DNA from: Eubacteriales bacterium
GTDB lineage: Bacteria > Bacillota > Clostridia > Oscillospirales > CAG-272
NCBI GenBank assembly: GCA_045631025.1
Contig: JAZQTY010000203.1
Location: 1-40,793, forward strand
Length of the DNA stretch: 40,793 bases
Direction: 5' to 3'
Shown here: one piece after another, positions 9,351 to 38,830 of the stretch
Position numbering within the stretch: position 1 is the stretch's first letter
How the letters are laid out: the number at the start of each line of letters is the position of its first letter
Notes under the pieces: model-generated
Seen by the model: only the letters and a program-made list of their open reading frames with translations
What the model was told of the DNA's origin: nothing
The model's database searches: none
Translations under genes and position numbers: made by a program

Positions 9351-9366
9351 AAGGGAGGATCGAGTT

Positions 9367-9510
9367 ATGCAAATGATTAAGAAGTACGCTACACCGAATG
9401 TCAGTGTTATATTCGTTGCGACGAGTGATGTGATTACAATTTCTCCCGGCGGTGGATATGATGACAAAGAAAACTGGCAGAACGACGTATTTATTGGTAA
9501 AAACCCGTAA
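9367..9510 (+). CDS. Conserved micro-ORF (47 aa) coupled to the giant EEP gene: MQMIKKYATPNVSVIFVATSDVITISPGGGYDDKENWQNDVFIGKNP
   Basis: Below the cutoff of the ORF track. AAGGGAGG RBS; starts 16 nt after the giant gene stop. Shares the K-Y-x-x-P...T-x-D-[IV]...NW-x-x-D-x-F pattern with the micro-ORFs at 13810..13938 and 32045..32173. Confidence 0.55.
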   Translation: MQMIKKYATPNVSVIFVATSDVITISPGGGYDDKENWQNDVFIGKNP

Positions 9511-9583
9511 TTTTAAATGTGTTAAATATGTCAACCATTTGCGGCGTGTGATCTGCTGTTAGAAAAATAAAAATAACAGAAAG

Positions 9584-9616
9584 CTGCACAAGTCCGTTGT
9601 TGACGGACTTGTGCAG
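9584..9616 (+). terminator. 14-bp-stem hairpin (ctgcacaagtccgt/acggacttgtgcag), probable operon end; weak T-tract
   Basis: Perfect inverted repeat with a 5-nt loop. A related copy lies at 28731..28763 in the same orientation relative to its upstream gene. Confidence 0.4.
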
Positions 9617-9653
9617 TAATGTCGTTAGAGTCATTATAAAATAGGAGAAGTCA

Positions 9654-12444: not shown

Positions 12445-12445
12445 A

Positions 12446-12622: not shown

Positions 12623-12680
12623 TTTCCAATATTTCCGTCTGTTCCAACCTTTCCGTTTGGTACAGCATCAAAAAAGCATC

Positions 12681-12717
12681 AAGGCTACCGCAGTTTTTTA
12701 TCTGCGGTAGCCTTTTT
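12681..12717. terminator. Bidirectional terminator hairpin (aaggctaccgcag/ctgcggtagcctt)
   Basis: 13-bp perfect stem, T-rich on both sides. Lies just downstream of the minus-strand gene ending at 12737. Confidence 0.65.
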
Positions 12718-12736
12718 AATTAGCACAAATTATCAA

Positions 12737-13717
12737 TCAGTCTTTTTTTCTTTTAATTACGAGAGCAGCGCCCGATACGAGAGATATCATAGCAATGCCT
12801 GCGATACCTATGCTTCCGCCGCATCCGCCTTTAGCTGCCTCGGTCTCGGGAGCAGGAGCAGCCTCGGTATTAGCTTCTGTATTTGCATCTGCCTCGGGAG
12901 TCGTGCCGGTATTGTTATCGCCGTTAGCGTTGTTTTCGTTGTTGTTTACATCGTTATTTCCATTGTTCTCGTTTTCTTCGTCTTCTTCATCGACGATAGC
13001 AGTTCCCGTCAGCACTACCTCTGAAATGATTCCTTCGTCGGCACCGGATACGAGCTCGGAAACAGCAACAACGATATACTCGGCAGTTACGCCCTTCATA
13101 TCGATCTCGTGAACGTGTCCACTCTTACCGTTGTATTCACCCTCAACGTAAAATCCGTTAACCGGATACTCGGTATAAACGTTAGAAAACGTCGCGTCCT
13201 CTACGGCAGAGAATGCGCCTCCGTCTTCAGAATAGTATATATCGTAGCCATTGTTAGCCATGTAAGGACGGTCTGCGTTCGAAGTAGAAGCTTGCGCATA
13301 CGATGTCCAAAGGCTCAACGTATCTACTACTGCAGCTTCATTCAGTTCGATTATAAACATTGCGTAATACGACTTGCCATTTGCATCGGGATTCGTTCCG
13401 TTCTCCATATTTCCTTCTGCATCAAAATAGCACATTTCGTAAGGCAAGTTACCAACTTCATCATTATTCAAGATCTGTGCATCAGTCGTTATATCTCCGT
13501 CAAAAGCACAGTCTGCGGGGTACGAGGCATAAAAGTTTAAGCCTATCGGCGCATCTTCTTTAATATGTCTGCCAAACAAGTCAACATACAATATTTCAAG
13601 CTGTGTGGGAGTAGCTTCTTCCGCGCCTACCGTCATAAGAGCGAATGGGGTTGCGAGTGCGAGCATCAGCGTTGCAATAATCAGCGCCATAGCTTTTTTC
13701 AAGGTTTGTTTTTTCAT
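12737..13717 (-). CDS. Secreted protein: signal peptide, one discoidin/CBM32-like module (type B), acidic linker, C-terminal KGGCGGS-TM-KRKKD tail
   Basis: The module aligns with the four modules of 13953..17975 (AFDGDITTDAQ, DTLSLWTSY, RPYMANNGYDIYYSEDG, GKSGHVHEIDM, YIVVAVSEL). The tail has the same pattern as 30212..31999. Confidence 0.8.
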   Translation of the reverse strand: MKKQTLKKAMALIIATLMLALATPFALMTVGAEEATPTQLEILYVDLFGRHIKEDAPIGLNFYASYPADCAFDGDITTDAQILNNDEVGNLPYEMCYFDAEGNMENGTNPDANGKSYYAMFIIELNEAAVVDTLSLWTSYAQASTSNADRPYMANNGYDIYYSEDGGAFSAVEDATFSNVYTEYPVNGFYVEGEYNGKSGHVHEIDMKGVTAEYIVVAVSELVSGADEGIISEVVLTGTAIVDEEDEENENNGNNDVNNNENNANGDNNTGTTPEADANTEANTEAAPAPETEAAKGGCGGSIGIAGIAMISLVSGAALVIKRKKD

Positions 13718-13809
13718 TTTGGTTTTCTCCTTTTAAAAAAAATTTTATTTTCCAGATAACGCGCTATCCGCGCTATCTAAATTACAAGATTAAGTTATGT
13801 TTACTGTGT

Positions 13810-13938
13810 TTAAAACGGATCTTCTGCCCAGTTATCCATTCCGTCGCTTCCGAATATAACGGAAAATACCATAATATCTTTAGTGTCAACGGTTACGATA
13901 CTAATAGAAGGAACCGTATATTTCTTATTCTTTCTCAT
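13810..13938 (-). CDS. Conserved micro-ORF (42 aa) coupled to the giant EEP gene: MRKNKKYTVPSISIVTVDTKDIMVFSVIFGSDGMDNWAEDPF
   Basis: AAGGAGGAA RBS; starts 14 nt after the giant gene stop. 28/42 residues identical to the micro-ORF at 32045..32173. The last 8 codons differ only at synonymous sites. Confidence 0.65.
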   Translation of the reverse strand: MRKNKKYTVPSISIVTVDTKDIMVFSVIFGSDGMDNWAEDPF

Positions 13939-13952
13939 AAATCAATTCCTCC

Positions 13953-16900
13953 TTATTTCGCGATAAACTTGGCGTAAACAGGCAAGTGGTCCGAAGGATA
14001 GAGCGTAGGAGCATCCTCGTCGTAGTTGTCTACTACAACGTATTCAATAGCGTTCAAGCTGTCGCCGTTATAGAATATGTGGTCGTATACGTGCGACTGA
14101 CGAGTGGAGTATCCATCTTCTATCAGCGTTCCGCCGACGTTTACTGCGATAGCAGCATCTTCCGCTGCCTGGTCAAGTGCGCCCGTGCCGGTAAGAAGTC
14201 CCTTGGTGGAGTGTGCATTCTGGTCAGAGTTAAGGTCACCCATAACGATCTGATTTGCGCACGTTTCACTCATATCAAGGAGCCAAAGTCTTATAAGCGT
14301 CGCCTGAGCTCTGCGCAAGTACTTGTTGCAGTCAGCGTTAGTCGCTTCGTCGTCGGTGAGCCACGCCTTGTAGTGCAAGTGAGTGTTAACAACGAGGAAC
14401 CTCTCTCCCGTGGTCTTATCCTCAACGAGAACCCATCTGAAGAATCTTCCTTTTGCGTTGTCGCCCTTTGTGTCGTTATCCCAGTCCACTCTGGAGTCAG
14501 AAACGTCGCTGTTGCTTGAATATTTTGAATTCTTCGCAAGCTCCTTGAAATACTCAACGCCGTCATCGATAACGTTAAACTTTGCGGTATTAACAAGGAT
14601 CTCGTTTCCTTCATTGCCGTTTGCGTTAGAGTTGAAACGGGTGTATGCGGAAAGACCGGAAACCTTACTGTACTCACCGTAAAGGTTACTGTCGTCCTCT
14701 TGGAGGCCCACAACGTCAGGCATCATCTCGATAATCGTTTCAAGAGCGTATACGGGATCTCTTCCGTCCCAGCCCGTCTCATTACCGGTTATTTTATCCC
14801 AGAAGTCACCTTCACCGTATGCCTTAATGTTATAAGTCATAACTGTAATAGAAGAAGCCTTGACGCTAAAAGTCTCAAGCATTGCTCTCTGATTCTCGTC
14901 GTAAGGACTGTACTTCGTTTCACCGTGAACGGTTACTGCGTTCTTGTAAGTCGAGTCTGCCTTATCTCTTACGTCGGCCAACGCAACGGATGCAACGTAA
15001 GATACGCTTCTTGAGTTGCTTGACTTACCGTATCCGGAATAGATATATTCAGTCTCGTCGCCACTTGTAACCTTGATATAAAGTCTTGCGGAGAACTCTC
15101 TTTGTACGTTATCCGTCTTAATATTTACCAAAGCGCAGTTTATTCTGTAACTGTCGTTACCGTCAGCCAAAATCGTGTCCGCGTCGATCTCGATATACTT
15201 CGTTTTTGCGAAGCTCCAATTATCGAACGCTTCCTTGGTAAATTCGTCAACATTTTCAAGATACTCGGTGGGAGTGATGAGCATTCCCAGCTTTACGTTG
15301 TCCTCGCCGTAGTCCTTAACGAGTCTGTCGTAGTAGCTGCGGGCTACTGTACCCGTAAAGCGAATTCCCGTGGGATCGTCCATACGAACCGATGCACCGT
15401 CAACAAGCGTTTTCTTGAGTGCGCCGCCGTTTACCGTAACCTCGGAAATGATCGCCTCGTGCGCGTTGTATACAATATCAGAAACTGCGATTGCTATATA
15501 TCTTGCCTCAACGCCACCCATATCGATATTATGAACGTGGCCGTCCTTGCCGTTGTAGGTACCTTCCACGTAAAGAGCATCAGCAGTGCTCTGTTTAGGA
15601 TAAACGTCCTCGAAGGAAGCCCCACTTACTGCATTATAAGACTTTCCATCTGTAGAATAATAGATATCGTATCCGTTGTTAGCCATGTAAGGACGGTTCG
15701 CAGGATCAGAGTCATTCACATACTGTGTCCAAAGGCTGAGCGTGTCTACTTGAGCATAATCCTCAAGCCTAATTACAAATATCAAGTAATAAGACTTGCC
15801 GTCTGCGTCGGGATTTTCACCGTTAGCCATAACTCCGTCCGCATCAAAGTAGCACATTTCGTAGTCCTTAATGGTTTCTCCATTTCTATTGTGATTCGCA
15901 TTCTGTGCATCAGTTGTAATATCTCCGTCAAACGCATTCGATATTGGGTAATCATTGTAGAAAGAGAAATTTTGCGTTGCTCCGGTTTCGGGTACAAGGT
16001 GTCTACCAAATGCATCCACTTTATCTATCTCAATAGCAGTCGGCGTTCCGTGCACGGCGAACTCGAAGAAGATCATATAGTTGTTTGCATCGCCATACAC
16101 TGCTTCGGAAACTGCAATAACAACGTACTTCGCCTTCACGTCTCTCATATCTATGTCGTGAACGTGACCCTTATCAGAGCCGTACATGCTCTCAACGTAA
16201 TAGCCGTTGTTATCCTTGTCGCTATAAACGTTGTTGAATTCTGCGTCCTTAACGGCGTAGTAGTTCACACCGTCCGCGGAGTAGTATATATCGTAAGCAT
16301 TGTTTGACATGTACTCGCCGTCATACGTTCCGTCGTCAAGCACGTGGTCGTAGTAGGAGGTCCAGAGGCTCAACGAAGATACCTCGGTCTCCTCATAAAG
16401 CTCAACCTCGAACAAGCAGTAATATGACTTTCCTGCCGCATCGGCATTATTTGTGCCGCTCATAAGCTCTACAAAGGATTTGTGAGCGAGATTTGCGTCA
16501 GGCTTTGTTTGAGCTTCCGTCATAATATTTCCGTCAAAAGCTCTTTCAGTATTGTAGCTGCCCAAAAAGCCCACTCCGTTTCCGTAAGGCTTAAAGGTCT
16601 TTATATCTCCCTTGGGGGCATCAGTATACTCGCCCTCTACGACTATCTCGGAAAAGATTATATCGGTCGCGTTGTATACAAGATCAGAAACGGCAATTGC
16701 AATATATCCTGCAGTTACGCCACCCATATCGATATTGTGAACGTGACCGCTCTTACCGTTGTAGGTGCCCTCTACGTAAAGAGCATCATCAGTGCTCTGC
16801 TTCTTATAAACGTCCGTAAAGGATGCGCCGTCTACTGCTGTATAAGACGCGCCGTCAACGGAATAATAGATGTCGTATCCGTTATTAGCCATGTAAGGAC

Positions 16901-17975
16901 GGTTCGCAGGATCAGAGTCATTCACATACGGTGTCCAAAGGCTGAGCGTGTCTATTTTAGCATAATCGTCAAGCTCTACTACGAATATTCCAAAATACGA
17001 GGTGCCGATCTCGGCAGGGCCCTGCTTCATGCCGCCGTTTGCATCGAAATGAGTCATAACGAAGTCATCTCTATCAGCTCCCGGCCAGGTCTGCGCATCG
17101 GATGTAATATCACCGTCATACGCCTTGTCTTCGGTCCATACGCGGCTGGGCGGTTCGTTTCTGAAGCTTATGGGCTCATAGTCTTCAACCCAATTTCCGA
17201 ATACCGAAAGCTTATTGATATCAATATAGGGATTTACTACAGGCGTACCCATTACCTCAACCTCGGTAAGGATCGCTTCTGCGTTCGACGCGAGTCCGTA
17301 AACTCCGATAGCGATATATTTAGCAGTAACGTCGTTCATTTCTATCTTGTGAACGTATCCTGCCTGATCCTCGCCGTCAGCATTTACAAACGTTTCGGCC
17401 TTATAGAGGGTTTCATATTTTCCGCCGGTATAAACATCGTAAAATTTTGCGGACTCAATGCCTGCGTCGGTATACGTGCTTCCGTCTTCCGAATAGAAAA
17501 TTTCGTATCCGTCGTTGCACATATACCATTCGCCGTAATAGCTTTCCGGCGTCCACAGATTCAAGGAATCAACCACTACTGCGTAGTCAGCAAGCTCGAT
17601 TATAAAGAAGAGAAAATAATCGTCGCCGTTGTTTGCGCCGTGCTGCATTTTGCCGTTCTCGTCAAGGTAGCAGTATTTATATCCACCACCTTTTGCCTCG
17701 ATTTGAGCATCACTTTCAAAGTATCCGCCGCCGTCTTTTGGCTTTACACCATTCACGAGATCGCCATCAAAAGCGTTTTCAGCAGGATACGAGCCACGGA
17801 ATGCAACATTATATCCATCTGCATACTTTCCAAAAGCCGAAACCTTATTGATCTCCACCTTTTGGCTTGTAGCCTCCTCTGCCGACGCCGTCATAAACGT
17901 GAACGGTATCGCAAGCGCTATCATCAGCACTGCAAGAAAGAGCGATAACGCTTTTTTTAGATTTCGCGTTTTCAT
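13953..17975 (-). CDS. Giant secreted protein: 4 x discoidin/CBM32-like module + conserved middle domain + C-terminal EEP domain
   Basis: Signal peptide MKTRNLKKALSLFLAVLMIALAIPFT. Middle domain GASVRMDDPTGIRFTG...LGMLITPTEYL. EEP motifs MTYNIK, GLQEDD, NTHLH, MGDLNS, DHIFY, YPSDHLPV. Confidence 0.85.
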   Translation of the reverse strand: MKTRNLKKALSLFLAVLMIALAIPFTFMTASAEEATSQKVEINKVSAFGKYADGYNVAFRGSYPAENAFDGDLVNGVKPKDGGGYFESDAQIEAKGGGYKYCYLDENGKMQHGANNGDDYFLFFIIELADYAVVVDSLNLWTPESYYGEWYMCNDGYEIFYSEDGSTYTDAGIESAKFYDVYTGGKYETLYKAETFVNADGEDQAGYVHKIEMNDVTAKYIAIGVYGLASNAEAILTEVEVMGTPVVNPYIDINKLSVFGNWVEDYEPISFRNEPPSRVWTEDKAYDGDITSDAQTWPGADRDDFVMTHFDANGGMKQGPAEIGTSYFGIFVVELDDYAKIDTLSLWTPYVNDSDPANRPYMANNGYDIYYSVDGASYTAVDGASFTDVYKKQSTDDALYVEGTYNGKSGHVHNIDMGGVTAGYIAIAVSDLVYNATDIIFSEIVVEGEYTDAPKGDIKTFKPYGNGVGFLGSYNTERAFDGNIMTEAQTKPDANLAHKSFVELMSGTNNADAAGKSYYCLFEVELYEETEVSSLSLWTSYYDHVLDDGTYDGEYMSNNAYDIYYSADGVNYYAVKDAEFNNVYSDKDNNGYYVESMYGSDKGHVHDIDMRDVKAKYVVIAVSEAVYGDANNYMIFFEFAVHGTPTAIEIDKVDAFGRHLVPETGATQNFSFYNDYPISNAFDGDITTDAQNANHNRNGETIKDYEMCYFDADGVMANGENPDADGKSYYLIFVIRLEDYAQVDTLSLWTQYVNDSDPANRPYMANNGYDIYYSTDGKSYNAVSGASFEDVYPKQSTADALYVEGTYNGKDGHVHNIDMGGVEARYIAIAVSDIVYNAHEAIISEVTVNGGALKKTLVDGASVRMDDPTGIRFTGTVARSYYDRLVKDYGEDNVKLGMLITPTEYLENVDEFTKEAFDNWSFAKTKYIEIDADTILADGNDSYRINCALVNIKTDNVQREFSARLYIKVTSGDETEYIYSGYGKSSNSRSVSYVASVALADVRDKADSTYKNAVTVHGETKYSPYDENQRAMLETFSVKASSITVMTYNIKAYGEGDFWDKITGNETGWDGRDPVYALETIIEMMPDVVGLQEDDSNLYGEYSKVSGLSAYTRFNSNANGNEGNEILVNTAKFNVIDDGVEYFKELAKNSKYSSNSDVSDSRVDWDNDTKGDNAKGRFFRWVLVEDKTTGERFLVVNTHLHYKAWLTDDEATNADCNKYLRRAQATLIRLWLLDMSETCANQIVMGDLNSDQNAHSTKGLLTGTGALDQAAEDAAIAVNVGGTLIEDGYSTRQSHVYDHIFYNGDSLNAIEYVVVDNYDEDAPTLYPSDHLPVYAKFIAK
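15426..17864 (-). repeat. Four tandem type-B (discoidin-like) modules of about 200 aa; modules 2 and 4 are partly near-identical
   Basis: The (A/Y)(F)DG(D/N)..T(D/E)AQ anchor recurs four times. 15681-15723 is identical to 16887-16929 (43 nt, offset 1206 nt). Confidence 0.75.
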
Positions 17976-21746: not shown

Positions 21747-21774
21747 TTGCTTTCCTCTGACTACAATTTATTTA

Positions 21775-22509: not shown

Positions 22510-22527
22510 TTTCTTCCTCCACTCGTT

Positions 22528-23565: not shown

Positions 23566-23771
23566 TTTAAAATTCTCCTTATTGTGTTTTGAGTATTCAT
23601 ATATAATATACGCAAAAAATCCCAAAAATACTTTTTATTTTCTAAAATTTTACATGAATTTTTTCACGACTTTATTTTACTATATTTTTTGACTTTTTTG
23701 GTCGTTTTAAAAGCGACATATTGCAATATTTTTTGTCTTTCAGGTTGCTCATGTTTCTTACGTGGCTTCCC

Positions 23772-28776: not shown

Positions 28777-30219
28777 TCAGTCTAACGCTTCAATAGAATT
28801 AAACAGATTTTCAATCTTGTTTTCGGTAGACGTCTTAACGCCGCCGTACAATCCGGAGATATCTTTAGTGGTGTTAATGCTCTCAAGCAAAATCTTTGTC
28901 TTAAGATTTATCTGGCTTCCGTATACAAGACCGAAATCGAACACGAGGCTATCAACAACGACGTCTACCATTTCAGCGCAAACCTCGTCGTAGCTGCTCT
29001 TAACCTTACAAACGGTGTTGTAGTAGGTAGTGAGCGTAGTGTCCGAGGACTTCCACGACAGAACCTCTACCATGAACGCGGAGAAATCAGCGTCTGCCGC
29101 GCAGATCGGAATTCCGTAGGTTGCACCGTAGGTGTTGTCGTTAGTCGTGTAATAGCGTCCCTGCTCTACGTCGTACATAGGATAAGGCAAGGGAGTATAA
29201 GAGAACTGTGCGTTCTCTCCCAAGCTTTCAATGGACGACAGCGAGGAAGCGTAGAAGAACGCTCTGCCGTCAAGGAAGGTATCGTGCGGGTCGTCGTAAG
29301 TACCGAACTTATTTCCGCAGAAGGAAAGGTCCTCGCTAAAGAGCTTGCGGAGTTCTGCGATGCTGTTCATCGAATGCTCGTTAGCAACCTCAACGCTCCA
29401 ATTATCCTCTGCATCAAAAGCAACGATCTTATTGTTAAGTCCGCTCCAGAAGGAAACGGGGAATTCCTTACCTGCCGCAACGAGTCCCCAGCTATCGTCA
29501 AGATCCATCTTGCCGTCTCCGCCGGGATCGCTCTTGGTATAAATGAGCATCTGCTCTATCGTCCACTGCTTGTCGCGAACCATCTGAACGATATCGGCGT
29601 GCTGGTTTTCAGCTCCGAGATCACGGTTGTAGTACAAGGTGTTGATTCGAGCCTTGTCAACGAGCGAGAAGTCGCTTACCATGTGGAACAGTCTGCCTCC
29701 GACTCTCATGGTGTCAAGAGTTTCGGAGTTGTACCACTCGTTTGTGAAGTCTATATACGACACAGCGTCAAGGTCGTTCATATATCCTGCCAAGATTGCA
29801 GACGACATATAGTTACGCGCCAAGAACGCCAAATCGTAGTCGTAATCTTCAGCGAGTATAACGTTTTTAAGAGCCTCAAGACCGTCGGCATCCTCCGTGT
29901 AGTTATCATCAACCGTAATAGTTACGTTGTAGTACTCCTCTATCCAGTTGTTTCTGTGATAAACCGTATCTGCCATTATATCTCCGCCGAGCTCACCTAC
30001 AAGCTCAAAATTGGGCTCGTGGGCGTTGTTCAAAGCGAGTATATTAAAGTTTCTTCCGCCCCAGTCGTAGTGAGGAACGGGATCGGTAGCTGCCTCTTCG
30101 ACGATTCCCTGGGTTTCAGTTTCCTCCGGTACGTCAACGTCGCAGGCAACGAAGGTCATAAGCAAAAGCAACAATGCAAGAAGCAAGCTGCCTGCTTTTA
30201 AAAATTTTGATTTAGTCAT
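28777..30219 (-). CDS. Extracellular solute-binding-protein-like lipoprotein (paralog of 4934..6409)
   Basis: Lipobox TFVAC. The start ATGACTAA overlaps the stop of 30212..31999 by 8 nt, with RBS AAGGAGA inside the upstream gene. Confidence 0.55.
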   Translation of the reverse strand: MTKSKFLKAGSLLLALLLLLMTFVACDVDVPEETETQGIVEEAATDPVPHYDWGGRNFNILALNNAHEPNFELVGELGGDIMADTVYHRNNWIEEYYNVTITVDDNYTEDADGLEALKNVILAEDYDYDLAFLARNYMSSAILAGYMNDLDAVSYIDFTNEWYNSETLDTMRVGGRLFHMVSDFSLVDKARINTLYYNRDLGAENQHADIVQMVRDKQWTIEQMLIYTKSDPGGDGKMDLDDSWGLVAAGKEFPVSFWSGLNNKIVAFDAEDNWSVEVANEHSMNSIAELRKLFSEDLSFCGNKFGTYDDPHDTFLDGRAFFYASSLSSIESLGENAQFSYTPLPYPMYDVEQGRYYTTNDNTYGATYGIPICAADADFSAFMVEVLSWKSSDTTLTTYYNTVCKVKSSYDEVCAEMVDVVVDSLVFDFGLVYGSQINLKTKILLESINTTKDISGLYGGVKTSTENKIENLFNSIEALD

Positions 30220-31999
30220 CTTTTCTTCTCCTTGAGGTTAAACCAACAACGCCTATTGCAGAAGCCATAACAACAGCCGCACCGCAGAAGCCGATAGAGC
30301 TGCCGCAGCCGCCCTTGGCTGCCTCGGTCTCGGGAGCAGGAGCAGCCTCGGTGTCCTTGTTATCCTCAACCAATACGGGAGGCTTGTTTTCGGGTTTGCT
30401 GGATTCGCCCTTTTCCTCTTCTTCCTCTCCCTCTTCCTCTTCGGGAATGTCCATAGGAGGAGCTGCTTCATTTTCAGCAGCTATGAGAGCAACACCCTTG
30501 TATACGTTAAGGTCACTTACGGTTACTTCGGTCACGAAATACGAGTAGAAGTAAATTCCAAGATAATCTCTCATGAATACGGAGGGATCCTCAACAGGGC
30601 TGTACTGCTCGATAAGAAGCCATCTGCCCTCGGAGTCCTTTACGTACAAAGCGATCGTGGTATTATCGCCGTTGATCTCCATAGCGTACTCCTGAACGGA
30701 AGGATAGTTCTCCGTTCCGCCGTCGTATCCGGCAACGTAGTCGGTGGTAAGTTCAGAGTAATCGATATAAGAGTATCCGCTTACCGCATTACCGTTTCTT
30801 TGAGGTCTGCCCCTGTTAGCGTAGAAGTAACCGCCGTAGGTTCCGTCGATAAGCAAGCCTATCGGAACGTTGCTCGTACGGCTCACGGTAAACTTAACGG
30901 TGTAGGAATATCCTTCGCCGAGAGGAAGTCCTTCGATGTCTGCGCCCCAAGCGGCGTTCTTCTTTTCGGTAACGCCTTCCTCGCCCGTAGGTCTTTCGGT
31001 AACCTTAATAGTTACCTTGCCTGCGTCCTCGGAATCAACGTTTGCGGTGATGTTATCGCAAGGCCACTCCCAACCTGCGTTTGCAGCAGCGGCTGCGTTG
31101 CTGGGCTTGAAGCAGTCGTCAGCTCCGCTGAAGTCAGCAGAGTAAAGGAGACCGCCCTCTTCAACTCCGTCCCACAAAGCCGTGGAAATAACGGGCTCTT
31201 CGCCTTCACCCTCGCCTTCGCCTTCGCCTTCACCCTCGCCACCTGCGGGAGGAGTAACGGCAGCATTTTCATTAGCTACAACCGATATGCCCTTGTATAC
31301 GCATACGTCGCTAACGGTTACTTCAGTTACGTAATACGAATAGAAATATAATCCAAGACGGTCTCTGAAAAATGCGGGCGGATCCTCCTTGGGAGTACCA
31401 TCGTCTATCTTGCTCCATTTGCCGTCCTCGCCCTTTACGTACAAAGCAAACGTCGTATCGTCACCGTTTATCTCAATAACGTACTCCTGCTCCAACTTTT
31501 CGGTATAATTACCCCAGCTATGTCCGGTCAATGCGCTACCGTTTCTTTGAATTCGAGCCTTGTGTGCGTAGAAATAACCACCGTGAGTGCCGTCAAACAG
31601 CAATCCGATAGGGTTTTCGTTATCTGCGCAGGAAACCTTGAACTTAATCGTATAGGAATATCCCTCGCCAAGAGGAAGATTGTCTACATCCGCGCCCCAA
31701 GCAGTATTGTTCTGCGGTGTAACCTTAATAGTCACTTTGCCGGAGTCCTCAGGATCAACCGTTGCGGTTATATTATCGCAAGCCCAGTTGTAACCTGCGT
31801 TTGCAGCAGCAGTTTCGTTGCTGGGCTTGTAGCAGTCATCAGCGCCGCTAAAGTCAGCCTCGTAGAGAAGCGCTCCGTCCGCAGCGGCAGCGTAAATATC
31901 GTTCGTAGCCGCATCTGCGAATGTCGCGATTGCCATGAAGGGTACGGTCATCATCAAGACCAATACCAATGCCAAAATTTTTTTCATCGTGTTTTTCAT
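30212..31999 (-). CDS. Secreted protein: signal peptide, 2 x jelly-roll module (type C) joined by a (GE)n linker, acidic linker, C-terminal KGGCGSS-TM-RRRKDD tail
   Basis: Two repeats (GALLYEADFSGADDCYKPSN... / GGLLYSADFSGADDCFKPSN... through ...VTEVTVSD(V/L)xVYKG). GGEGEGEGEGEGEGEE is encoded at 31196..31243. Confidence 0.8.
   Translation of the reverse strand: MKNTMKKILALVLVLMMTVPFMAIATFADAATNDIYAAAADGALLYEADFSGADDCYKPSNETAAANAGYNWACDNITATVDPEDSGKVTIKVTPQNNTAWGADVDNLPLGEGYSYTIKFKVSCADNENPIGLLFDGTHGGYFYAHKARIQRNGSALTGHSWGNYTEKLEQEYVIEINGDDTTFALYVKGEDGKWSKIDDGTPKEDPPAFFRDRLGLYFYSYYVTEVTVSDVCVYKGISVVANENAAVTPPAGGEGEGEGEGEGEGEEPVISTALWDGVEEGGLLYSADFSGADDCFKPSNAAAAANAGWEWPCDNITANVDSEDAGKVTIKVTERPTGEEGVTEKKNAAWGADIEGLPLGEGYSYTVKFTVSRTSNVPIGLLIDGTYGGYFYANRGRPQRNGNAVSGYSYIDYSELTTDYVAGYDGGTENYPSVQEYAMEINGDNTTIALYVKDSEGRWLLIEQYSPVEDPSVFMRDYLGIYFYSYFVTEVTVSDLNVYKGVALIAAENEAAPPMDIPEEEEGEEEEEKGESSKPENKPPVLVEDNKDTEAAPAPETEAAKGGCGSSIGFCGAAVVMASAIGVVGLTSRRRKDD
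30494..31888 (-). repeat. Two tandem type-C modules with a (GE)n spacer
   Basis: Protein-level repeat of about 200-230 aa seen directly in the translation. Confidence 0.7.
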
Positions 32000-32044: not shown

Positions 32045-32173
32045 TTAGAATGGGTCCTCCGCCCAGTTATCAAGATTGTCGTTTCCGAATATAACGGAAA
32101 ATACCATGATGTCCTTCGTATCGATATCTACTACTCTCATTTCGGGAGAAACGTATTCCTTTTTCATTTTCAT
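32045..32173 (-). CDS. Conserved micro-ORF (42 aa) coupled to the giant EEP gene: MKMKKEYVSPEMRVVDIDTKDIMVFSVIFGNDNLDNWAEDPF
   Basis: AAGGAGGGG RBS; starts 18 nt after the giant gene stop. 32083-32107 is identical to 13848-13872 (25 nt). Confidence 0.65.
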   Translation of the reverse strand: MKMKKEYVSPEMRVVDIDTKDIMVFSVIFGNDNLDNWAEDPF

Positions 32174-32191
32174 AATACAACCCCTCCTTAA

Positions 32192-35100
32192 TTAATATGC
32201 GAACGTTGCGTATACGGGAATGTGGTCAGAGGGATATCTCATAACATCCTTGACTACTTCCTCGCCCGTCTCTTCATCGGTCTCGGTTACAGTACCGGGG
32301 TCGTTCATAACGTTAACTACGGTGTAGGTGAGAGCCTCGGTGTTTCTGAAGAGAATGTGGTCAAATACATATTCATCACGTCCAACGTAATTACTTGAGC
32401 TTGCTAGCGTACCGCCGGTGTCACCGGTAATGCAAGCCTCATCTCTTGCGAAGGAGAGTCCGCTCTCGGAGTAGCCGTTAAGAACCGCCTTACCATTGTT
32501 GGAGTTTATGTGAGCGTTCATATCTCCGGTAAGTATCTGCGTAGGATACTGTGCTTCCTGATCCTTCATCCATGCTGCGAGAAGTCTTGACTGATACTCA
32601 CGAAGAACGTGGTCGTCAGCGCACTTCTCGTCGGAGGAGCTTGTGCCGTCACCGTAGTGGAGGTGAGTATTAACGAAGAGAATTACCTCGCCGGTCGTAT
32701 TGTCTTTGAGAACTGCGTAGCTAAAGGTTCTTCCGATGTCCTCGCTAGAGAACCAGCCCTCTGCGTCACCCTGAGAGTCGATGGACATATCAGTTCCCTC
32801 ATAGCCCTCAATAGTGTAGGTCTTGGCAAGATTCTTGAAGGAATCCCAACCGGAAGTCACAAGAGTGAACTTCTCGGTCTTGTAGTAGATGTCGTTAAAC
32901 GCCCAGCCGTTACCAAACTTGTTGGACCACTTGTACTCTCTGTCTCCTGCAATATTTGCGTATCCTTTGTTCTCAAGAACAGCGAGATAATCGTTCCAGT
33001 CCTCGGTATCCTCCTGGAGTCCGACAACATCAGGGTTAACGTCAAGAATAATCTGAACTGCGTTTGCGGGGTTTCTTCCCTCCCAAGCGTCATCTCTCTT
33101 GTACTCAAGGTTGTAGGTGAGCACGGAAATGGTGGAGTTCTTGTTTGTTCCCTCGCCGTCAGGCTGATTGAAGAAGCTCGTGAGCGTCTTCATCTCGTCT
33201 GCATCGTAGGGGCTGTATACGGTAACGCCTGCAATGGTTATCGCGTTTACGTAATCTCCGCCCATCTCGGTCTTGGTGTCACCATATGCCTTTCTTGCTA
33301 CCTCTGCGACGGATCTGGAGTTATACTCCACGTCAAAATCAGAGTACTTGTAAATTTCGCCGTTAATTTCAATAAACGCTCTTGCAGAGAACTCGCGCGT
33401 GTAGTTAGCAGCCTTTACGTTAACGAGCGCGCAGTTAATAGTGTAGAACAGGCCGTCATCGTCTACGTGTACCGTAGTCGCATCAATCTTTACGTACTTA
33501 ACGCCCGTGATAGCATCGCATGCATCAAGCGCTTCCATAGTAAAGTCGACGCCGTTCTCGGTGAGGTAATCGGTAGGAGTGATTATCATACCGAGCTTTA
33601 CATTCTCCTCGCCGTATTCCTTCTTCAAGGAATCAAGCGTGTACTTTCTGAACTCACTCTCGAAGCGAATACCCGTGGGACTGCTGAGACGAACAGCCGC
33701 GCCCGTTTCGCTCTGAATCTCACCTGCCATAAGTCCCTTGTATATCTTCATGTCAGAAATCTCGGTCCAGGAATTTGCGTCCGAAGTACCGCTGAGCTTT
33801 CTTGTGTAAATTCTGGGGTTAAGGTTATTGCCAAGCTTTGCGCCGTCATAGGTAAGCGTTCTTACTGCGTTGAACGCGCCGTTAGCATCCGCAACGTAAA
33901 GAGTCATAGTGTTATTTTCGGGATCGACCTCAACTGCGAACGTATGCTTCTCGGACTTTTCTACGTCGGTCGAGTAGTTCCACTTATCCTCTCCCGCGTC
34001 AGACTTTCCGACCTTTTCGGTGTTCCACTTATAACAGCGGTTACAGCCAAATCCGTCGATAACGATCGAATGGTCGCCGTCGGCCATGACGCCAAGTCCG
34101 TACTTGTTGTATGCGGTGTTTCCGAATTCGAGGTCAAATATGATGGTGTACTTATACTGCTTGTCGCCGTATACGTAGGTAGTCTCTTCATCAGAACCTT
34201 CCTCCGGCTCTATCACTTCAACAACGTCTCTGAGAGGATAAGAGGTATCGATTCCACCCCAAATAGCGCGGTTATACGACTTACCGTCAATAAGGGTAAG
34301 TCTTGCCATGCTTCCGTCCTCGGAAATAACGGCATCCGCACCGTAGTTGCTATCGCTATAGAAGCCCTGACGCCAATTGAAGCGGTCAGCGAAGTTGACA
34401 GTATAAAGAAGATCGCCGTCCTTTGCGTTATCATACTCGGCAACTCTGTCTTCCTCGGTAGATACAGGCAATCCCTTGTATATCAACAAGTTAGAAAGTT
34501 TAGCCCAAGAATTGGCATTAACTGCGCCTCTTATGACAATCCTGCAGCTCAAATAATCGCCAAAGTCTACATCACCGTACGTAGCTACCTCATTGAACGA
34601 GCCGTCAAGGTCCACAATATAGAGGGACATTGTTTTTGCTTCGGGGTCAACCTCAACAGCAAAGGTCTGTGTACCGGACTTAGGACTCCACAAGCCATCA
34701 TAGTCCCACTGCTCGACGGGATAGTTTGCTCCAACCTCCGTATCCGCGGACATGTCGTTATTCCAGTCCCAGAGTCTGGAGTTTCCGTTTCCGTCGACGG
34801 TAATAGCATAGTTCCCGTCAACCTGAATACCTACCAACGTTCTACCGCCGGTTTCGTTACCGAAATCTACGTCGAACATAACGGTATATTTTCTGTAATT
34901 GCCGTTTGCGTCTGCGGTAAGAGGATATGTGTATTCTCCCCTGTATCCTGCCCACATAGCGCGCTTCGAGCTATAGTTTGCAACGGAAAGCGTTGCGGAG
35001 CTTCCGTCCTTGGAAGCAGTGATATACGCACCTCTGTTGGAGTCAGATGCAAAATTGCCTGCCCAGCCAAGAGAGTTGAAGTTGACGGTGTTAAGAAGAT

Positions 35101-36589
35101 CGCCAACCTTCGCACTATCATACTCAGCAGCTCTGTCTATTGCTTCTGCCTTAATATCGCTGACAGCGCCCTTGTATATCAGAACATCTGCAATTTCATT
35201 CCAGTAATTGCCGTCTACCGTTCCGGACGTATATCTTGTATAGATTCTGCAGTCTAATTTTTTATTGAACTTTACGCCTGTAAACGTTTCTACCTTTACG
35301 TATTCGCCTTCAGTATTCTTTACGTAAAGAGTCATCGTTCCGTTTGCAGTATCAACCTCGACTGCAAACGAATGCAAATCACCATATTTGTCGGCGGCGA
35401 ATCCGCCCGCGGTCAACCAGTTTACTGTTCCCGTGGTGGCTTTAGTGTTCCACTTATACAGATAGGTGTCACCGGATCCGGTAACAAGAATATCCGTGTC
35501 ATTATCTGTACAATCTACCATGATGCCTACTCCGGTTTTTGTATTTCCGAATCTTGCATCATACGTGATTGTGTATTTTTCGCCGCCCTCGGTGGAGAAG
35601 CTATCTGCAGCAGAAAATCCGCCCCAAATTGAGCGCTTATTATTATAGTCGGCAAGTATAGCCTTCGAATGTATCAATTGCTTCAGCGATCTTCCGTTTG
35701 CGGAAGTCATAACATAGGCATGCCAGTTGTTGTGATCTGCAAAATCGTTGCGCCAGGACATGTCGTTAAAGTCGACAACCTTAAGAAGGTCGCCGTTGCC
35801 GGCAGCTGCATATATCTCTGCGGGAGTCTTTTCGACATTGAGCGTATCTACCGTTCCGTTTACGGTAACCTCACCGATATCGATGCATCCGTCCTTACTG
35901 GGAGCTGTTACGGCAACTGCAACGTACTTTGCCGAAACTCCGTTACCCTCACCATCACGAAGATCTATCTTGTGACCAACTCTGAGGTAGCCGTCAACAG
36001 TTTTAGACGCGTATGCGGCATCGCCCTCAACAGGGAACTTCGCTCCGGGATCAGTTCCATCTCCGCACATTCCGCTGAACTCCTTCAAAAAAGTCCAGGT
36101 CTCGCCGTCAGTGCTCACAAGGATTTCATATCCATCGTTAATACCCCAGCTTGATGTGGGATCGCTCCAGGCTACTGCCTTATCTGCAGCGTATCCGTTA
36201 CCCGTAAGCCAAATAGTTACGTCGTCAAGAGTGCTCAAGCCGTTGAGCTCGAATACTGCATATCCGTAATACAGACTCATTGTTGAGCCCACCATAAGAG
36301 GCGTATAGGGGGAAGATATGGACTCGGACTCGTAGTACGGACGTTTACTTCTTCCATCCGCGGACGTATCGTAGGGATCTCCGTCGATCATTCCTGCAAC
36401 GGAGCCATACGAAGTGTGAAGGTCGTATCCGTCACTTCTCTTCGCAAAGATTTTCGCATGCGTAATGGTTGTAGCTATGGTCTCACTTTCCTCTGCCGCT
36501 ATAGGCAACATCGTAAGAGGAAGCGCCAGCGCTATCATCAGCACTGCGAGAAATAATGACAACGCTTTTTTCAGAGTTCTCTTTTTCAT
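32192..36589 (-). CDS. Giant secreted protein: 1 x discoidin-like module + 3 x jelly-roll module (type A-like) + conserved middle domain + C-terminal EEP domain
   Basis: Signal peptide MKKRTLKKALSLFLAVLMIALALPLT. Middle domain GAAVRLSSPTGIRFESEF...LGMIITPTDYL. EEP motifs LTYNLE, GLQED, NTHLH, TGDMNA, DHILF, YPSDHIPV. Confidence 0.85.
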   Translation of the reverse strand: MKKRTLKKALSLFLAVLMIALALPLTMLPIAAEESETIATTITHAKIFAKRSDGYDLHTSYGSVAGMIDGDPYDTSADGRSKRPYYESESISSPYTPLMVGSTMSLYYGYAVFELNGLSTLDDVTIWLTGNGYAADKAVAWSDPTSSWGINDGYEILVSTDGETWTFLKEFSGMCGDGTDPGAKFPVEGDAAYASKTVDGYLRVGHKIDLRDGEGNGVSAKYVAVAVTAPSKDGCIDIGEVTVNGTVDTLNVEKTPAEIYAAAGNGDLLKVVDFNDMSWRNDFADHNNWHAYVMTSANGRSLKQLIHSKAILADYNNKRSIWGGFSAADSFSTEGGEKYTITYDARFGNTKTGVGIMVDCTDNDTDILVTGSGDTYLYKWNTKATTGTVNWLTAGGFAADKYGDLHSFAVEVDTANGTMTLYVKNTEGEYVKVETFTGVKFNKKLDCRIYTRYTSGTVDGNYWNEIADVLIYKGAVSDIKAEAIDRAAEYDSAKVGDLLNTVNFNSLGWAGNFASDSNRGAYITASKDGSSATLSVANYSSKRAMWAGYRGEYTYPLTADANGNYRKYTVMFDVDFGNETGGRTLVGIQVDGNYAITVDGNGNSRLWDWNNDMSADTEVGANYPVEQWDYDGLWSPKSGTQTFAVEVDPEAKTMSLYIVDLDGSFNEVATYGDVDFGDYLSCRIVIRGAVNANSWAKLSNLLIYKGLPVSTEEDRVAEYDNAKDGDLLYTVNFADRFNWRQGFYSDSNYGADAVISEDGSMARLTLIDGKSYNRAIWGGIDTSYPLRDVVEVIEPEEGSDEETTYVYGDKQYKYTIIFDLEFGNTAYNKYGLGVMADGDHSIVIDGFGCNRCYKWNTEKVGKSDAGEDKWNYSTDVEKSEKHTFAVEVDPENNTMTLYVADANGAFNAVRTLTYDGAKLGNNLNPRIYTRKLSGTSDANSWTEISDMKIYKGLMAGEIQSETGAAVRLSSPTGIRFESEFRKYTLDSLKKEYGEENVKLGMIITPTDYLTENGVDFTMEALDACDAITGVKYVKIDATTVHVDDDGLFYTINCALVNVKAANYTREFSARAFIEINGEIYKYSDFDVEYNSRSVAEVARKAYGDTKTEMGGDYVNAITIAGVTVYSPYDADEMKTLTSFFNQPDGEGTNKNSTISVLTYNLEYKRDDAWEGRNPANAVQIILDVNPDVVGLQEDTEDWNDYLAVLENKGYANIAGDREYKWSNKFGNGWAFNDIYYKTEKFTLVTSGWDSFKNLAKTYTIEGYEGTDMSIDSQGDAEGWFSSEDIGRTFSYAVLKDNTTGEVILFVNTHLHYGDGTSSSDEKCADDHVLREYQSRLLAAWMKDQEAQYPTQILTGDMNAHINSNNGKAVLNGYSESGLSFARDEACITGDTGGTLASSSNYVGRDEYVFDHILFRNTEALTYTVVNVMNDPGTVTETDEETGEEVVKDVMRYPSDHIPVYATFAY
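33731..35818 (-). repeat. Three tandem ~220-240-aa modules (GDLLxxV(D/N)F ... FAVEVD...MTLY(V/I) ... (L/K)IYKG)
   Basis: Counted from the translation: approximately aa 258-474, 488-705 and 715-953. Confidence 0.7.
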
Positions 36590-38020: not shown

Positions 38021-38830
38021 ATGAGTAACCAACCTACAAACGCAAAAATTGATTCCTTGAAGATAATGTCCTACAACGTCTTGCTCGACTTTTACAAGGA
38101 GGGGCGCGATCCAAGCTTTATCGTAGAGCTCCCCGCTAGCGTAAGAGAGCATGCGCCCGATATCCTCGGCACGCAGGAGACTATTACCGATATGCACGAC
38201 CAATGCTTGGGGCTCTTGGAGGAATACACCTGCTTTAAGGGCGAGGCGTACACGGAAAATAACATGCGAGGCAATTATATTTACTGGCGTGCAGACAAGT
38301 TTAAGGCGCTTGAAGCGGGACACCGCTACATGAGCGACACGCCGACGGTACGCTCAAAGTATGAAAAGTCAAGAGAGTACCGAGGCTTTAACTACCTTTA
38401 CTTGGAAAGCTGTGAAACGGGTAACCGTTTTCTGTTCCTCAACCTTCACGCAGACTACCGCGCTGACGAGGACACCCGAGTTCTTCAGCTTAAGACCGTA
38501 AACGCCTTTTTGAATGAAGAAAGATGGCAGGGGCTCCCGGCAATTATCGTGGGAGATTTCAACTCTACCGCGCATCAGGCAAGTATTTCCACCTTCCTAT
38601 CTGACAATTCTCGCCTTGCCATGACATCGGAGGTCGCAGAGGTAGTCGGAGACACCGGCGCTACCCTCGTAAGCGGCTTTGCCAACAAGCTTCCCTACGT
38701 GTTCGATTATATTTTCGTTACCAAGGATAAGATCAACACAAAGTATTATTCCGATATCGACAATATAAAGAACGGAAAATACCCCTCTGATCATCTCCCG
38801 GTGGTTGCTGAAATAGAATTATTTAACTGA
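38021..38830 (+). CDS. Leaderless (cytoplasmic) stand-alone EEP-domain protein
   Basis: No signal peptide. Motifs MSYNVL, GTQET, NLHAD, VGDFNS, DYIFV, YPSDHLPV. Closest by eye to the EEP domains of the two lipoproteins. Confidence 0.8.
   Translation: MSNQPTNAKIDSLKIMSYNVLLDFYKEGRDPSFIVELPASVREHAPDILGTQETITDMHDQCLGLLEEYTCFKGEAYTENNMRGNYIYWRADKFKALEAGHRYMSDTPTVRSKYEKSREYRGFNYLYLESCETGNRFLFLNLHADYRADEDTRVLQLKTVNAFLNEERWQGLPAIIVGDFNSTAHQASISTFLSDNSRLAMTSEVAEVVGDTGATLVSGFANKLPYVFDYIFVTKDKINTKYYSDIDNIKNGKYPSDHLPVVAEIELFN

What the first reader, a model, noticed from the sequence alone, without database searches (positions are those of the whole stretch)
32045..32173. Second micro-ORF copy: 25-nt identical core although the neighbouring giant genes have different architectures
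MKMKKEYVSPEMRVVDIDTKDIMVFSVIFGNDNLDNWAEDPF is 28/42 identical to the 13810..13938 peptide. The stretch TKDIMVFSVIFG is invariant, and 32083-32107 is nucleotide-identical to 13848-13872.

The upstream giant proteins differ in their N-terminal module sets (1 discoidin-like + 3 type-A-like modules here, 4 discoidin-like modules there). They share the signal peptide, middle domain and EEP domain. So the peptide tracks the conserved C-terminal half of the giants, which suggests its partner is the middle or EEP domain.

The peptide gene is followed by a strong RBS and the GCGS-tailed protein gene, so it sits in the middle of an operon.
Basis: seen in the sequence. Interest (0 to 1): 0.7.

Follow-up and report, generated by a model that had tools for sequence, protein, structure and literature searches.

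The report
Micro-protein gene trailing giant secreted phosphodiesterases
A real, conserved 40-50-residue protein of an undescribed family is encoded immediately after each giant secreted EEP phosphodiesterase gene in this gut Clostridia contig (three copies, not two); its role is unknown, most likely a dedicated partner or plug for the enzyme.

Summary
Two minus-strand 42-codon ORFs (32045-32173, 13810-13938) are 28/42 identical and share a 25-nt identical run.

A third, divergent copy (9367-9510, + strand) follows the window's third EEP giant. Each ORF starts 14-18 nt after the giant's stop codon and has its own AAGGAGG-type ribosome-binding site.

Synonymous changes show selection on the protein. 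Pfam, NCBIfam and PDB hold no matching family, but about 50-65 clusters exist in metagenomes.

In 12 distinct loci the DNWxxD[PV]F-tailed peptides sit directly after a gene ending in the middle+EEP module, whatever the N-terminal modules are. One further locus lost its giant by deletion. Stand-alone EEP paralogues have no peptide.

Remoter relatives share only the N-terminal half and follow other large, mostly secreted proteins.

Peptide similarity does not co-vary with EEP or middle-domain similarity. The 25-nt run is not conserved in orthologues.

The peptide has no export signal and is predicted to be disordered. Its N-terminus resembles a lasso-type YxxPxL leader, yet no RiPP enzyme lies in any flank.

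Best guess (about 0.35): a co-translated cytoplasmic partner or inhibitor of the enzyme's C-terminal half. The rival is a RiPP-like precursor matured in trans.

The parts
32045..32173 (-). Micro-ORF B (42 aa, MKMKKEYVSPEMRVVDIDTKDIMVFSVIFGNDNLDNWAEDPF). This is the finding.
   Evidence: An exact copy of the protein is on record only from this contig; a 98%-identical cluster representative exists. In frame with giant B (stop plus 6 codons), which is not the case in loci A or C.
32183..32189 (-). Shine-Dalgarno AAGGAGG, 9 nt before the ATG of micro-ORF B and directly after the giant's TAA (32192-32194).
   Evidence: The same layout (stop, SD, ATG) appears in all 20 Clostridial loci inspected.
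32192..36589 (-). Giant B (1465 aa): signal peptide, N-terminal binding-type modules, middle domain and EEP domain (aa 963-1465 = 32195-33703).
   Evidence: Pfam Exo_endo_phos at aa 1157-1456. C-terminal half 37% identical to giant A. Catalytic N, QE, H, GDxN and SDH residues are invariant.
30212..31999 (-). Downstream 595-aa surface protein with a GGCGSS + transmembrane + RRRKDD tail and its own AAGGAGG. The spacer after the peptide is 45 nt, with no hairpin.
13810..13938 (-). Micro-ORF A (42 aa, MRKNKKYTVPSISIVTVDTKDIMVFSVIFGSDGMDNWAEDPF).
   Evidence: Identical protein on 11 or more contigs.
13948..13954 (-). Shine-Dalgarno AAGGAGG of micro-ORF A, overlapping the giant's TAA (13953-13955).
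13953..17975 (-). Giant A (1340 aa): signal peptide, four discoidin-like modules, middle domain and EEP domain (aa 856-1340).
   Evidence: AlphaFold2 model of the C-terminal half has pTM 0.78. Foldseek matches PDE12, a Bacteroides EEP protein (3MPR), CNOT6L, Nocturnin and TDP2.
13751..13781 (-). 13-bp hairpin 29 nt after the stop of micro-ORF A, followed by a U-run. A possible partial terminator or 3' stabiliser.
   Evidence: z = -3.9. Not reported by the strict terminator scan.
12737..13717 (-). Downstream 326-aa surface protein: one discoidin-like module and a GGCGGS + transmembrane + KRKKD tail.
9367..9510 (+).
   Evidence: tblastn E = 1e-6 against peptide A. ORF list. Family HMM E = 4e-21. 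Orthologues in L008/L009.
9351..9358 (+). Shine-Dalgarno AAGGGAGG of micro-ORF C, immediately after the giant's TGA (9348-9350).
6444..9350 (+). Giant C (968 aa): signal peptide, two modules, middle domain and EEP domain.
9583..9617 (+). 16-bp hairpin 73 nt after the stop of micro-ORF C.
   Evidence: z = -4.4.

Best explanation
**Shown**
- The micro-ORFs are genuine, translated genes for an undescribed family of 37-50-residue proteins.
- The consensus is MKxNK[KE]-Y-x-x-P-x-[LIMF]-x-V-...-D-[IV]-[IM]-T-x-S, a short variable linker, then G-x-D-x-x-D-N-W-x-x-D-[PV]-F.
- The gene sits 14-23 nt after the stop codon of a giant signal-peptide protein ending in a middle+EEP (DNase-I-fold phosphodiesterase) module. 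It has its own strong ribosome-binding site, so it is made from the same mRNA as the enzyme's C-terminus.
- The peptide has no signal peptide, no membrane segment and no cysteine. It is predicted to be disordered on its own.

**Inferred**
- It is a dedicated cytoplasmic partner of the C-terminal half of the giant.
- The N-terminal strand-forming motif docks by beta-strand addition.
- The acidic, aromatic tail (DNWxxDPF) occupies the metal- and phosphate-binding cleft as a phosphodiester mimic.
- This would keep the last-translated, catalytically competent domain inactive and export-competent until Sec translocation strips the peptide off.
- The analogy is to cytoplasmic inhibitors co-encoded with secreted enzymes, here reduced to a micro-peptide.
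- Relatives with other tails would serve other large proteins in the same way.
For: **Real gene**
- 12 synonymous against 14 non-synonymous amino-acid codon differences between the paralogues, with a near-invariant C-terminal half.
- 21 cluster representatives at E < 1e-3 among 1.8 billion proteins, and 50-65 clusters by profile search.
- A Shine-Dalgarno sequence 8-10 nt before the ATG in every Clostridial locus.

**Coupling to middle+EEP**
- Three loci in the window, plus L001-6, L007, L008/9, L010/11, L014/15, L022, L027, L034, L035/36 and L037-39.
- Absent after EEP paralogues that lack the middle domain.
- Independent of the N-terminal modules and of the downstream gene, which varies: CGS-tail protein, EEP lipoprotein, GH36.
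- Hairpins follow the peptide in loci A and C.

**Tail type follows the partner's catalytic class**
- DNW..D.F tails occur after EEP giants and once after a GDPD phosphodiesterase.
- Other tails occur after Pfam-less or LRR giants.

**Other points**
- The catalytic residues of the EEP domain are intact, and the fold matches phosphodiesterases and nucleases.
- The peptide alone folds as coil, mean pLDDT 67.
Against: - No binding has been shown. Co-folding could not be run.
- Peptide similarity is discordant with EEP and middle-domain similarity, so there is no co-evolution signal. This is expected only if the peptide binds an invariant site, or if loci recombine; mosaic identity is seen.
- A cytoplasmic 269-aa EEP (38021-38830) and two EEP lipoproteins have no peptide, so EEP activity is not inherently in need of an inhibitor.
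- Sec substrates cross unfolded, so an inhibitor may be unnecessary.
- Remote relatives follow proteins with no recognisable enzyme domain.
- No peptide inhibitor of EEP enzymes is known to me (own knowledge).
Confidence: 0.35

Rival explanations
1. RiPP-type precursor. The conserved N-terminal half is a leader recognised by an RRE-containing maturation system encoded elsewhere in the genome. The tail is a core peptide that is cleaved or modified (lasso-like or another class) and exported, for example as a signal that reports expression of the giant exoenzyme.
For: - The only PDB sequence the family profile touches is the leader of the lasso peptide TfuA (6JX3), MEKKKYTAPQLA against mkknKkYvaPels. 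The E-value of 2.1 is not significant, but lasso leaders are a tiny fraction of the PDB.
- Y-x-x-P-x-[LIMF] is present in 60 of 62 members. It is followed by T (47/60), x, then an invariant S, and D/E at 7-9 residues further on in 54/60.
- This echoes YxxPxL...T(-2)...core residue 1...Asp8 as described in PMC10368454.
- Other RiPP-like traits: conserved 'leader' with a more variable tail, short length, disorder, and several paralogous copies per genome.
Against: - No RRE/PqqD, lasso cyclase, B2 protease, radical-SAM enzyme or ABC exporter appears among the genes flanking any of about 20 loci, nor among the window's unannotated ORFs.
- Known lasso clusters keep the A gene next to B and C (PMC5067487).
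- Y would lie at -19, not -17.
- Insertions and deletions fall inside the would-be ring, between S26 and GxD.
- The tails are acid-rich, so D/E at positions 7-9 is expected by composition.
- The 'core' DNWxxDPF is as conserved as the 'leader'.
- The strict coupling to giants is unexplained by this reading.
Confidence: 0.15
2. Regulatory (arrest or leader-type) peptide. Translating the micro-ORF, with its W..DP motif near the end, pauses the ribosome and so tunes termination, mRNA stability or expression of what lies downstream. It might do this in response to how the giant is being exported.
For: - Position between the giant and the next gene, with hairpins after the ORF in loci A and C.
- Conserved Trp, Asp and Pro close to the stop in the A/B clade. 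These resemble features of known arrest peptides (own knowledge of TnaC, SecM and MifM).
Against: - The downstream context is not conserved: no hairpin in locus B, different downstream genes, and some copies lie at an operon end.
- The distance from DPF to the stop codon varies from 0 to 8 residues across the family.
- The whole 40 residues are conserved, not only a C-terminal arrest module.
Confidence: 0.1
3. Exported structural partner. The peptide leaves the cell by an unknown route and completes, or tethers, a domain of the giant on the cell surface by donating a strand.
For: Two strand-prone hydrophobic segments flank a polar turn, with an invariant Asp21 and Ser26. The partners are surface or secreted proteins.
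Against: The family as a whole has no signal peptide and no double-glycine leader. No exporter lies in the loci. No fusion proteins were found among 1.8 billion representatives.
Confidence: 0.07
4. Chance ORF or non-functional remnant. The similarity reflects recent duplication or gene conversion only.
For: The loci are mosaic, and the 25-nt run could be a short conversion tract.
Against: - The family spans peptides down to about 35% identity while keeping invariant Y, P, D and S and the DNW..D.F tail.
- Synonymous substitutions dominate in the conserved part.
- A ribosome-binding site is always present.
Confidence: 0.02

Closest known systems
Lasso-peptide precursors (leader of TfuA/fusilassin, PDB 6JX3; YxxPxL leaders bound by the B1/RRE protein)
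   Same: - Short, disordered peptide.
- N-terminal K-K-Y-x-x-P-x-[LIMF] motif, then T-x-[small residue], then an acidic residue 7-9 positions later.
- Aromatic residues in the tail.

   Different: - No B1, B2 or C genes anywhere nearby.
- The motif register is off by two residues.
- The would-be ring varies in length.
- The match is statistically insignificant (E = 2.1).
- The gene is coupled to a giant enzyme gene, not to a biosynthetic cluster.
Cytoplasmic inhibitor or immunity proteins co-encoded with secreted enzymes (barstar/barnase, IFS/SPN, NuiA/NucA; own knowledge)
   Same: - A small, signal-less, acidic product encoded next to a secreted hydrolytic enzyme.
- Expected 1:1 co-expression.
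   Different: - Those inhibitors are folded proteins of 90-160 residues.
- None is known for the EEP fold.
- Here the product is a 42-residue disordered peptide, and binding is untested.
Dispersed multi-copy RiPP precursors matured in trans (prochlorosin-type logic; own knowledge)
   Same: Several paralogous precursors per genome, each with a conserved N-terminal half and a variable tail, encoded away from any maturase.
   Different: No maturase has been identified at all. Each copy is tied to the 3' end of a giant secreted-protein gene.
Translation-arrest or leader peptides (TnaC, SecM, MifM; own knowledge)
   Same: Small ORF in an operon. Conserved Trp, Asp and Pro near the C-terminus in the A/B clade.
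   Different: It lies downstream, not upstream, of the gene it is paired with. There is no conserved downstream structure or target gene. The distance from the motif to the stop codon varies.

Membership tests
Any curated protein family (Pfam-A, NCBIfam) | Significant match to a family HMM | tested here: not met
   Nothing for the two peptides. Nothing for 23 family members at E <= 10 apart from three spurious hits to single members. Nothing for 10 remote relatives.
Lasso-peptide precursor | YxxPxL motif in the leader at positions -17 to -12 (PMC10368454) | tested here: inconclusive
   Y-x-x-P-x-[LIMF] is present in 60/62 members, and the best PDB match is the TfuA leader, but at E = 2.1. If the T-x-S site marked the cleavage point, Y would be at -19. 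The cleavage site is unknown.
Lasso-peptide precursor | Thr (rarely Ile/Val) at -2 and a small residue at core position 1 | tested here: inconclusive
   T in 47/60 members, followed two residues later by an invariant Ser. The A/B clade has Val in place of Thr. This fits one register only.
Lasso-peptide precursor | Asp/Glu at a fixed core position 7, 8 or 9 that closes the ring | tested here: not met
   D/E occurs at positions 7-9 in 54/60 members, but the tails are acid-rich. The conserved GxD aspartate wanders over six positions, because insertions and deletions fall inside the would-be ring.
Lasso-peptide precursor | Clustered with B (or B1+B2) protease/RRE and C cyclase genes (PMC5067487) | tested here: not met
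   No PqqD/RRE, transglutaminase-like or Asn-synthetase-like gene in the window or in the flanks of about 20 related loci. The rest of the genomes could not be searched.
Double-glycine (PCAT-exported) leader peptides | GG/GA/GS cleavage motif at -2/-1 with the LSxxELxxIxGG pattern, and a nearby peptidase-ABC exporter | tested here: not met
   The alignments show a single conserved Gly with a non-Gly residue before it. No ABC transporter lies in any locus (same context calls).
Sec or lipoprotein signal-peptide-bearing secreted peptide | Basic n-region directly followed by a hydrophobic h-region of 7-15 residues and a cleavage site | tested here: not met
   The basic N-terminus is followed by about 15 mixed or charged residues. 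The hydrophobic IMVFSVIF stretch exists only in the A/B clade and is replaced by polar residues elsewhere.
Enzyme / co-encoded cytoplasmic inhibitor pair | Inhibitor gene adjacent to and co-expressed with the gene of a secreted hydrolase | tested here: met
   14-23 nt spacing with its own Shine-Dalgarno in 12 distinct EEP-giant loci. The signal peptide and intact catalytic residues of the giants are shown.
Enzyme / co-encoded cytoplasmic inhibitor pair | Direct binding to and inhibition of the enzyme | not testable with these tools
There is no biochemistry.
Translation-arrest peptide | Arrest motif at a fixed distance from the stall site, plus a conserved downstream regulatory target | tested here: not met
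   0-8 residues follow DPF in different members. Hairpins occur after the ORF in loci A and C but not B. Downstream genes differ between loci.

The most novel reading that the evidence does not exclude
The micro-ORFs are dispersed RiPP precursors with a lasso/RRE-type leader, each welded by translational coupling to the 3' end of a giant secreted enzyme gene. They would be matured in trans by machinery encoded elsewhere. The cell would then release a modified peptide in fixed proportion to each exoenzyme, for instance as a signal or a protective factor. This genomic logic is not known for any RiPP class.
Probability: 0.12. Interest if true: 0.85.

Novelty: new variant of a known kind. Interest (0 to 1): 0.55.

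Why it matters
**The pairing.** Small proteins are routinely missed by annotation. Every member found here is unnamed or called 'hypothetical'. This family shows a strict, repeated pairing of one micro-protein with one giant secreted enzyme in uncultured gut Oscillospiraceae. Relatives sit behind other large, mostly secreted proteins.

**If it is a partner or inhibitor.** It would be the first peptide regulator of EEP-fold phosphodiesterases. It would also be a compact model for how Gram-positive cells handle the last-made catalytic domain of very large Sec substrates.

**If it is a RiPP precursor.** It would reveal a new way of wiring natural-product output to enzyme expression.

**Practical value.** Either way, the pairing rule gives annotators a way to find these genes. 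It also hands experimenters a directly testable pair: a peptide and a recombinant C-terminal half.

Tried and rejected
**Co-folding.** I tried AlphaFold on the peptide joined to middle+EEP, first as a linker chimera, then via the natural in-frame read of locus B.

**Locus searches.** The search for related loci on metagenomes with two family alignments found no stretch conserved enough. A hand-made gapped DNA pattern gave only 9 stretches, about 5 of them real.

**Shared domain hypothesis.** I tested whether the middle domain of the EEP giants is homologous to the C-terminal domain of the non-EEP giants that also carry a peptide. hhalign probability was 0.1%, so this is rejected.

**RNA element under the ORF.**
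- Rfam finds nothing there.
- The 25-nt core is not conserved in orthologues.
- The promoter-like match inside the ORF is weak and absent in locus A.
- Rejected.

**Readthrough or fusion with the giant.** The ORF is in frame only in locus B (and coordinates). No fused homologues exist among 1.8 billion representatives. Rejected.

**Stand-alone cytoplasmic EEP.** The 290-aa EEP ORFs in L010 and L014 are better explained by -1 frameshifting.

**Literature.** Searches for the peptide motifs and for the gene arrangement found nothing.

**PDB sequence search with the giants' C-terminal halves.** Only a weak CNOT6 hit.

**Foldseek.** It identified the EEP part but said nothing about the middle domain.

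Full report
**1. The observation**

The two minus-strand ORFs translate exactly as quoted. They share 28 of 42 residues, an invariant TKDIMVFSVIFG, and a 25-nt identical run (32083-32107 = 13848-13872).

At the DNA level they are 90/129 identical. Twelve codons differ synonymously and 14 amino-acid codons non-synonymously. In residues 19-42 almost every difference is synonymous. That pattern is the mark of selection on a protein.

Each ORF begins 14-18 nt after the stop codon of a giant signal-peptide protein and has its own AAGGAGG 9 nt upstream.

- Giant A has four modules like the one in its 326-aa neighbour.
- Giant B keeps only the first of these.
- Both share the signal peptide and a C-terminal half that is 37% identical and ends in an Exo_endo_phos (EEP) domain.

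The 25-nt run is only mildly surprising:
- A permutation that respects the amino-acid identity gives P = 0.013.
- Orthologues L007 and L037 carry changes inside the run.
- It is one of three exact runs of 20 nt or more between loci A and B. The longest, 35 nt, lies in the linker before the C-terminal anchor of the downstream genes.
- Rfam sees no RNA element there.

I read the run as codon chance or a short recombination tract, not as a functional nucleotide element.

**2. What else is in the window**

It sits 16 nt after a third EEP giant, 6444-9350.

So the 40.8-kb contig holds three paralogous loci. Each has:
- an AraC-type regulator;
- a giant EEP protein followed by its micro-ORF;
- a surface protein with a GGCG[GS]S + transmembrane + basic tail.

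Other components are not in every locus:
- Loci A and C also carry a GH39-like enzyme.
- Loci B and C also carry an unannotated roughly 480-aa lipoprotein and an EEP lipoprotein.

Strong hairpins follow the peptide ORF in loci A and C but not B. This ties the peptide to the giant upstream rather than to the gene downstream.

**3. The family**

Pfam and NCBIfam have nothing, either for the peptides or for 23 relatives scanned singly.

A profile search of 1.84 billion representatives finds 21 proteins at E < 1e-3, all 38-89 residues long and none fused to a larger protein. Word-indexed profile searches find 50-65 clusters, all unnamed or 'hypothetical'.

The consensus is basic MKxNK[KE], then Y-x-x-P-x-[LIMF]-x-V, a polar turn, D-[IV]-[IM]-T-x-S, a linker of variable length, and G-x-D-x-x-D-N-W-x-x-D-[PV]-F. 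Y7, D21 and S26 are invariant and P10 nearly so.

AlphaFold2 with a 48-sequence alignment predicts coil, with mean pLDDT 67.5.

**4. Genomic association**

Every DNW-tailed member with enough flank follows a gene ending in middle+EEP, at 15-23 nt. There are 12 distinct loci:
- the three window loci;
- L001-6 (orthologues of locus A);
- L007 (Oscillospiraceae MAG SIG616, orthologue of locus B);
- L008/9;
- L010/11;
- L014/15;
- L022;
- L027;
- L034;
- L035/36;
- L037-39

.

The one exception, L012/13, is an internal deletion of the giant. The first ~90 nt and last ~45 nt of the gene remain on either side of the deletion.

EEP paralogues without the middle domain, whether lipoproteins or cytoplasmic, are never followed by a peptide.

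Two results qualify it.

*No co-variation.* Peptides A, B and L007 are 64-80% identical to one another, while EEP A and EEP B are about 40% identical and the middle domains about 50%. EEP A's nearest paralogue, L014, is 59% identical but carries a peptide only 45% identical. Orthologue comparisons show mosaic nucleotide identity that switches near the peptide gene. Either the peptide contacts an invariant site, or the loci recombine.

*A wider family.* Members sharing the N-terminal half but with other tails follow other proteins:
- a GDPD phosphodiesterase and a DUF4434-like protein, both still with DNW-type tails;
- a 2154-aa LRR_5 protein and a 420-aa protein in L018;
- three successive Pfam-less giants in L033, each with its own peptide.

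Borderline Prevotella relatives (E about 1e-3) lie upstream of a TonB-dependent receptor.

A profile comparison found no shared domain between the EEP giants' middle domain and the C-termini of those other giants.

**5. Mechanism**

What is shown: the ORFs are real, conserved, co-transcribed and probably translationally coupled to the giants. The peptide has no export signal and is disordered alone. The tail type follows the partner's catalytic class. The partner EEP domains keep all catalytic residues. They fold like PDE12, CNOT6L, TDP2 and the Bacteroides EEP phosphodiesterases.

My preferred reading is inferred, with confidence about 0.35. The peptide would be a dedicated cytoplasmic partner of the last-translated catalytic half. 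The N-terminal motif would dock as a strand, and the acidic, aromatic tail would plug the phosphate- and metal-binding cleft until export.

Against this reading:
- there is no co-evolution signal;
- there are peptide-less EEP paralogues, one of them cytoplasmic;
- Sec substrates are exported unfolded;

The main rival is a RiPP-type precursor. The family profile's only PDB contact is the TfuA lasso leader (E = 2.1). The Y-x-x-P-x-[LIMF]...T-x-S...D/E layout mimics the lasso rules described in PMC10368454.

However, the register is off by two, the would-be ring varies in length, and the tails are acid-rich anyway. No RRE, cyclase, protease, radical-SAM or exporter gene lies in any of about 20 flanks, whereas known clusters keep these next to the precursor (PMC5067487).

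I give the RiPP reading about 0.12-0.15. An arrest or regulatory peptide gets about 0.1, because it lacks a conserved downstream target and the motif-to-stop distance varies. A chance ORF is excluded.

**6. Novelty and verdict**

The family is undescribed, and the pairing rule (giant secreted protein, then micro-ORF) is new to me and to the searched literature. The kind of thing, a small operon-encoded partner or leader-bearing peptide, is familiar. Function is unproven.

I score it as a new variant of a known kind, with interest 0.55.

**7. Side finding**

In four related loci the giant is split just before the EEP domain. At each junction there is a U_UUU_UUU or G_GGU_UUU heptamer, a 6-7 nt spacer and a stable 8-11-bp hairpin whose arms differ between loci yet stay complementary. 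The -1 frame is open across the site. This looks like conserved programmed -1 frameshifting that would set the ratio of EEP-bearing to EEP-less product.

Noticed in passing
Related loci: L010 7060-7066 plus hairpin about 7073-7103; L014 3680-3686 plus hairpin; L022 (minus strand, about 1040-1095); L037 about 790-830: The giant EEP gene is split just before the EEP domain. At the junction there is a slippery heptamer (T_TTT_TTT or G_GGT_TTT), a 6-7 nt spacer and a stable 8-11-bp GC-rich hairpin, and the -1 frame is open across the site. The hairpin arms differ between loci but stay complementary. This looks like conserved -1 programmed ribosomal frameshifting that makes a full-length (EEP-bearing) product alongside a truncated one. 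The window's own giants are continuous ORFs.
   Followed up: partly
window 9367-9510 (+): A third, divergent copy of the micro-ORF (47 aa) lies 16 nt after a third EEP giant (6444-9350). It was not listed in the finding.
   Followed up: yes
window 12444-12521 (+): Rfam match to Gut-1 RNA (RF01706), 75.8 bits against a gathering score of 50, E = 1.3e-13. It lies just downstream of the terminator that ends locus A.
   Followed up: no
window 12737-13717 (-), 30212-31999 (-), 3631-4689 (+): Three surface proteins end in a GGCG[GS]S / CGS motif, then a transmembrane helix, then a basic tail. This looks like a Cys-containing C-terminal sorting signal; there is a weak NCBIfam hit to a MYXO-CTERM-anchored family (E = 0.004). 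Each protein carries the same module type as the giant in its locus.
   Followed up: partly
window 12834-12868 = 30318-30352: A 35-nt exact repeat between loci A and B, in the linker (TEAAPAPETEAA) before the C-terminal anchor. It is longer than the 25-nt run in the peptide genes. Together with the mosaic identity to orthologues, it suggests recombination among the paralogous loci.
   Followed up: partly
window 13751-13781 (-) and 9583-9617 (+): Strong hairpins (13 and 16 bp, z = -3.9 and -4.4) shortly after micro-ORFs A and C. Locus B has none.
   Followed up: partly
L033 (GCA_054283185.1, JAZTAH010000007.1) 3390-14186: Three successive large signal-peptide proteins with no Pfam domain, whose C-termini read ..YGDAAAAYAAANA. 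Each is followed about 20 nt later by a 41-45-aa peptide of the wider family, so the giant-plus-micro-ORF pairing is a repeated rule beyond EEP enzymes.
   Followed up: partly
L029-L032 8001-8153: Very common Prevotella/Xylanibacter 50-aa peptides (MKMKKEYVSPSIQVLQIESENILSGS...DYEEEY; hundreds of contigs) share the N-terminal motif at borderline significance. They sit 175 nt upstream of a TonB-dependent receptor and are divergent from a 2300-aa protein.
   Followed up: no
L012/L013 about 3477-3981: Internal deletion of the giant EEP gene relative to L034. Its first ~90 nt and last ~45 nt and the intact micro-ORF remain. The variant is seen in two JGI metagenomes.
   Followed up: yes
window 20847-23625 (-) and 11147-11722 (-): Three consecutive ORFs (299, 244 and 365 aa) with no Pfam or NCBIfam match lie between loci A and B, and a Fic/DOC protein lies between loci C and A. 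These are possibly small inserted islands.
   Followed up: no
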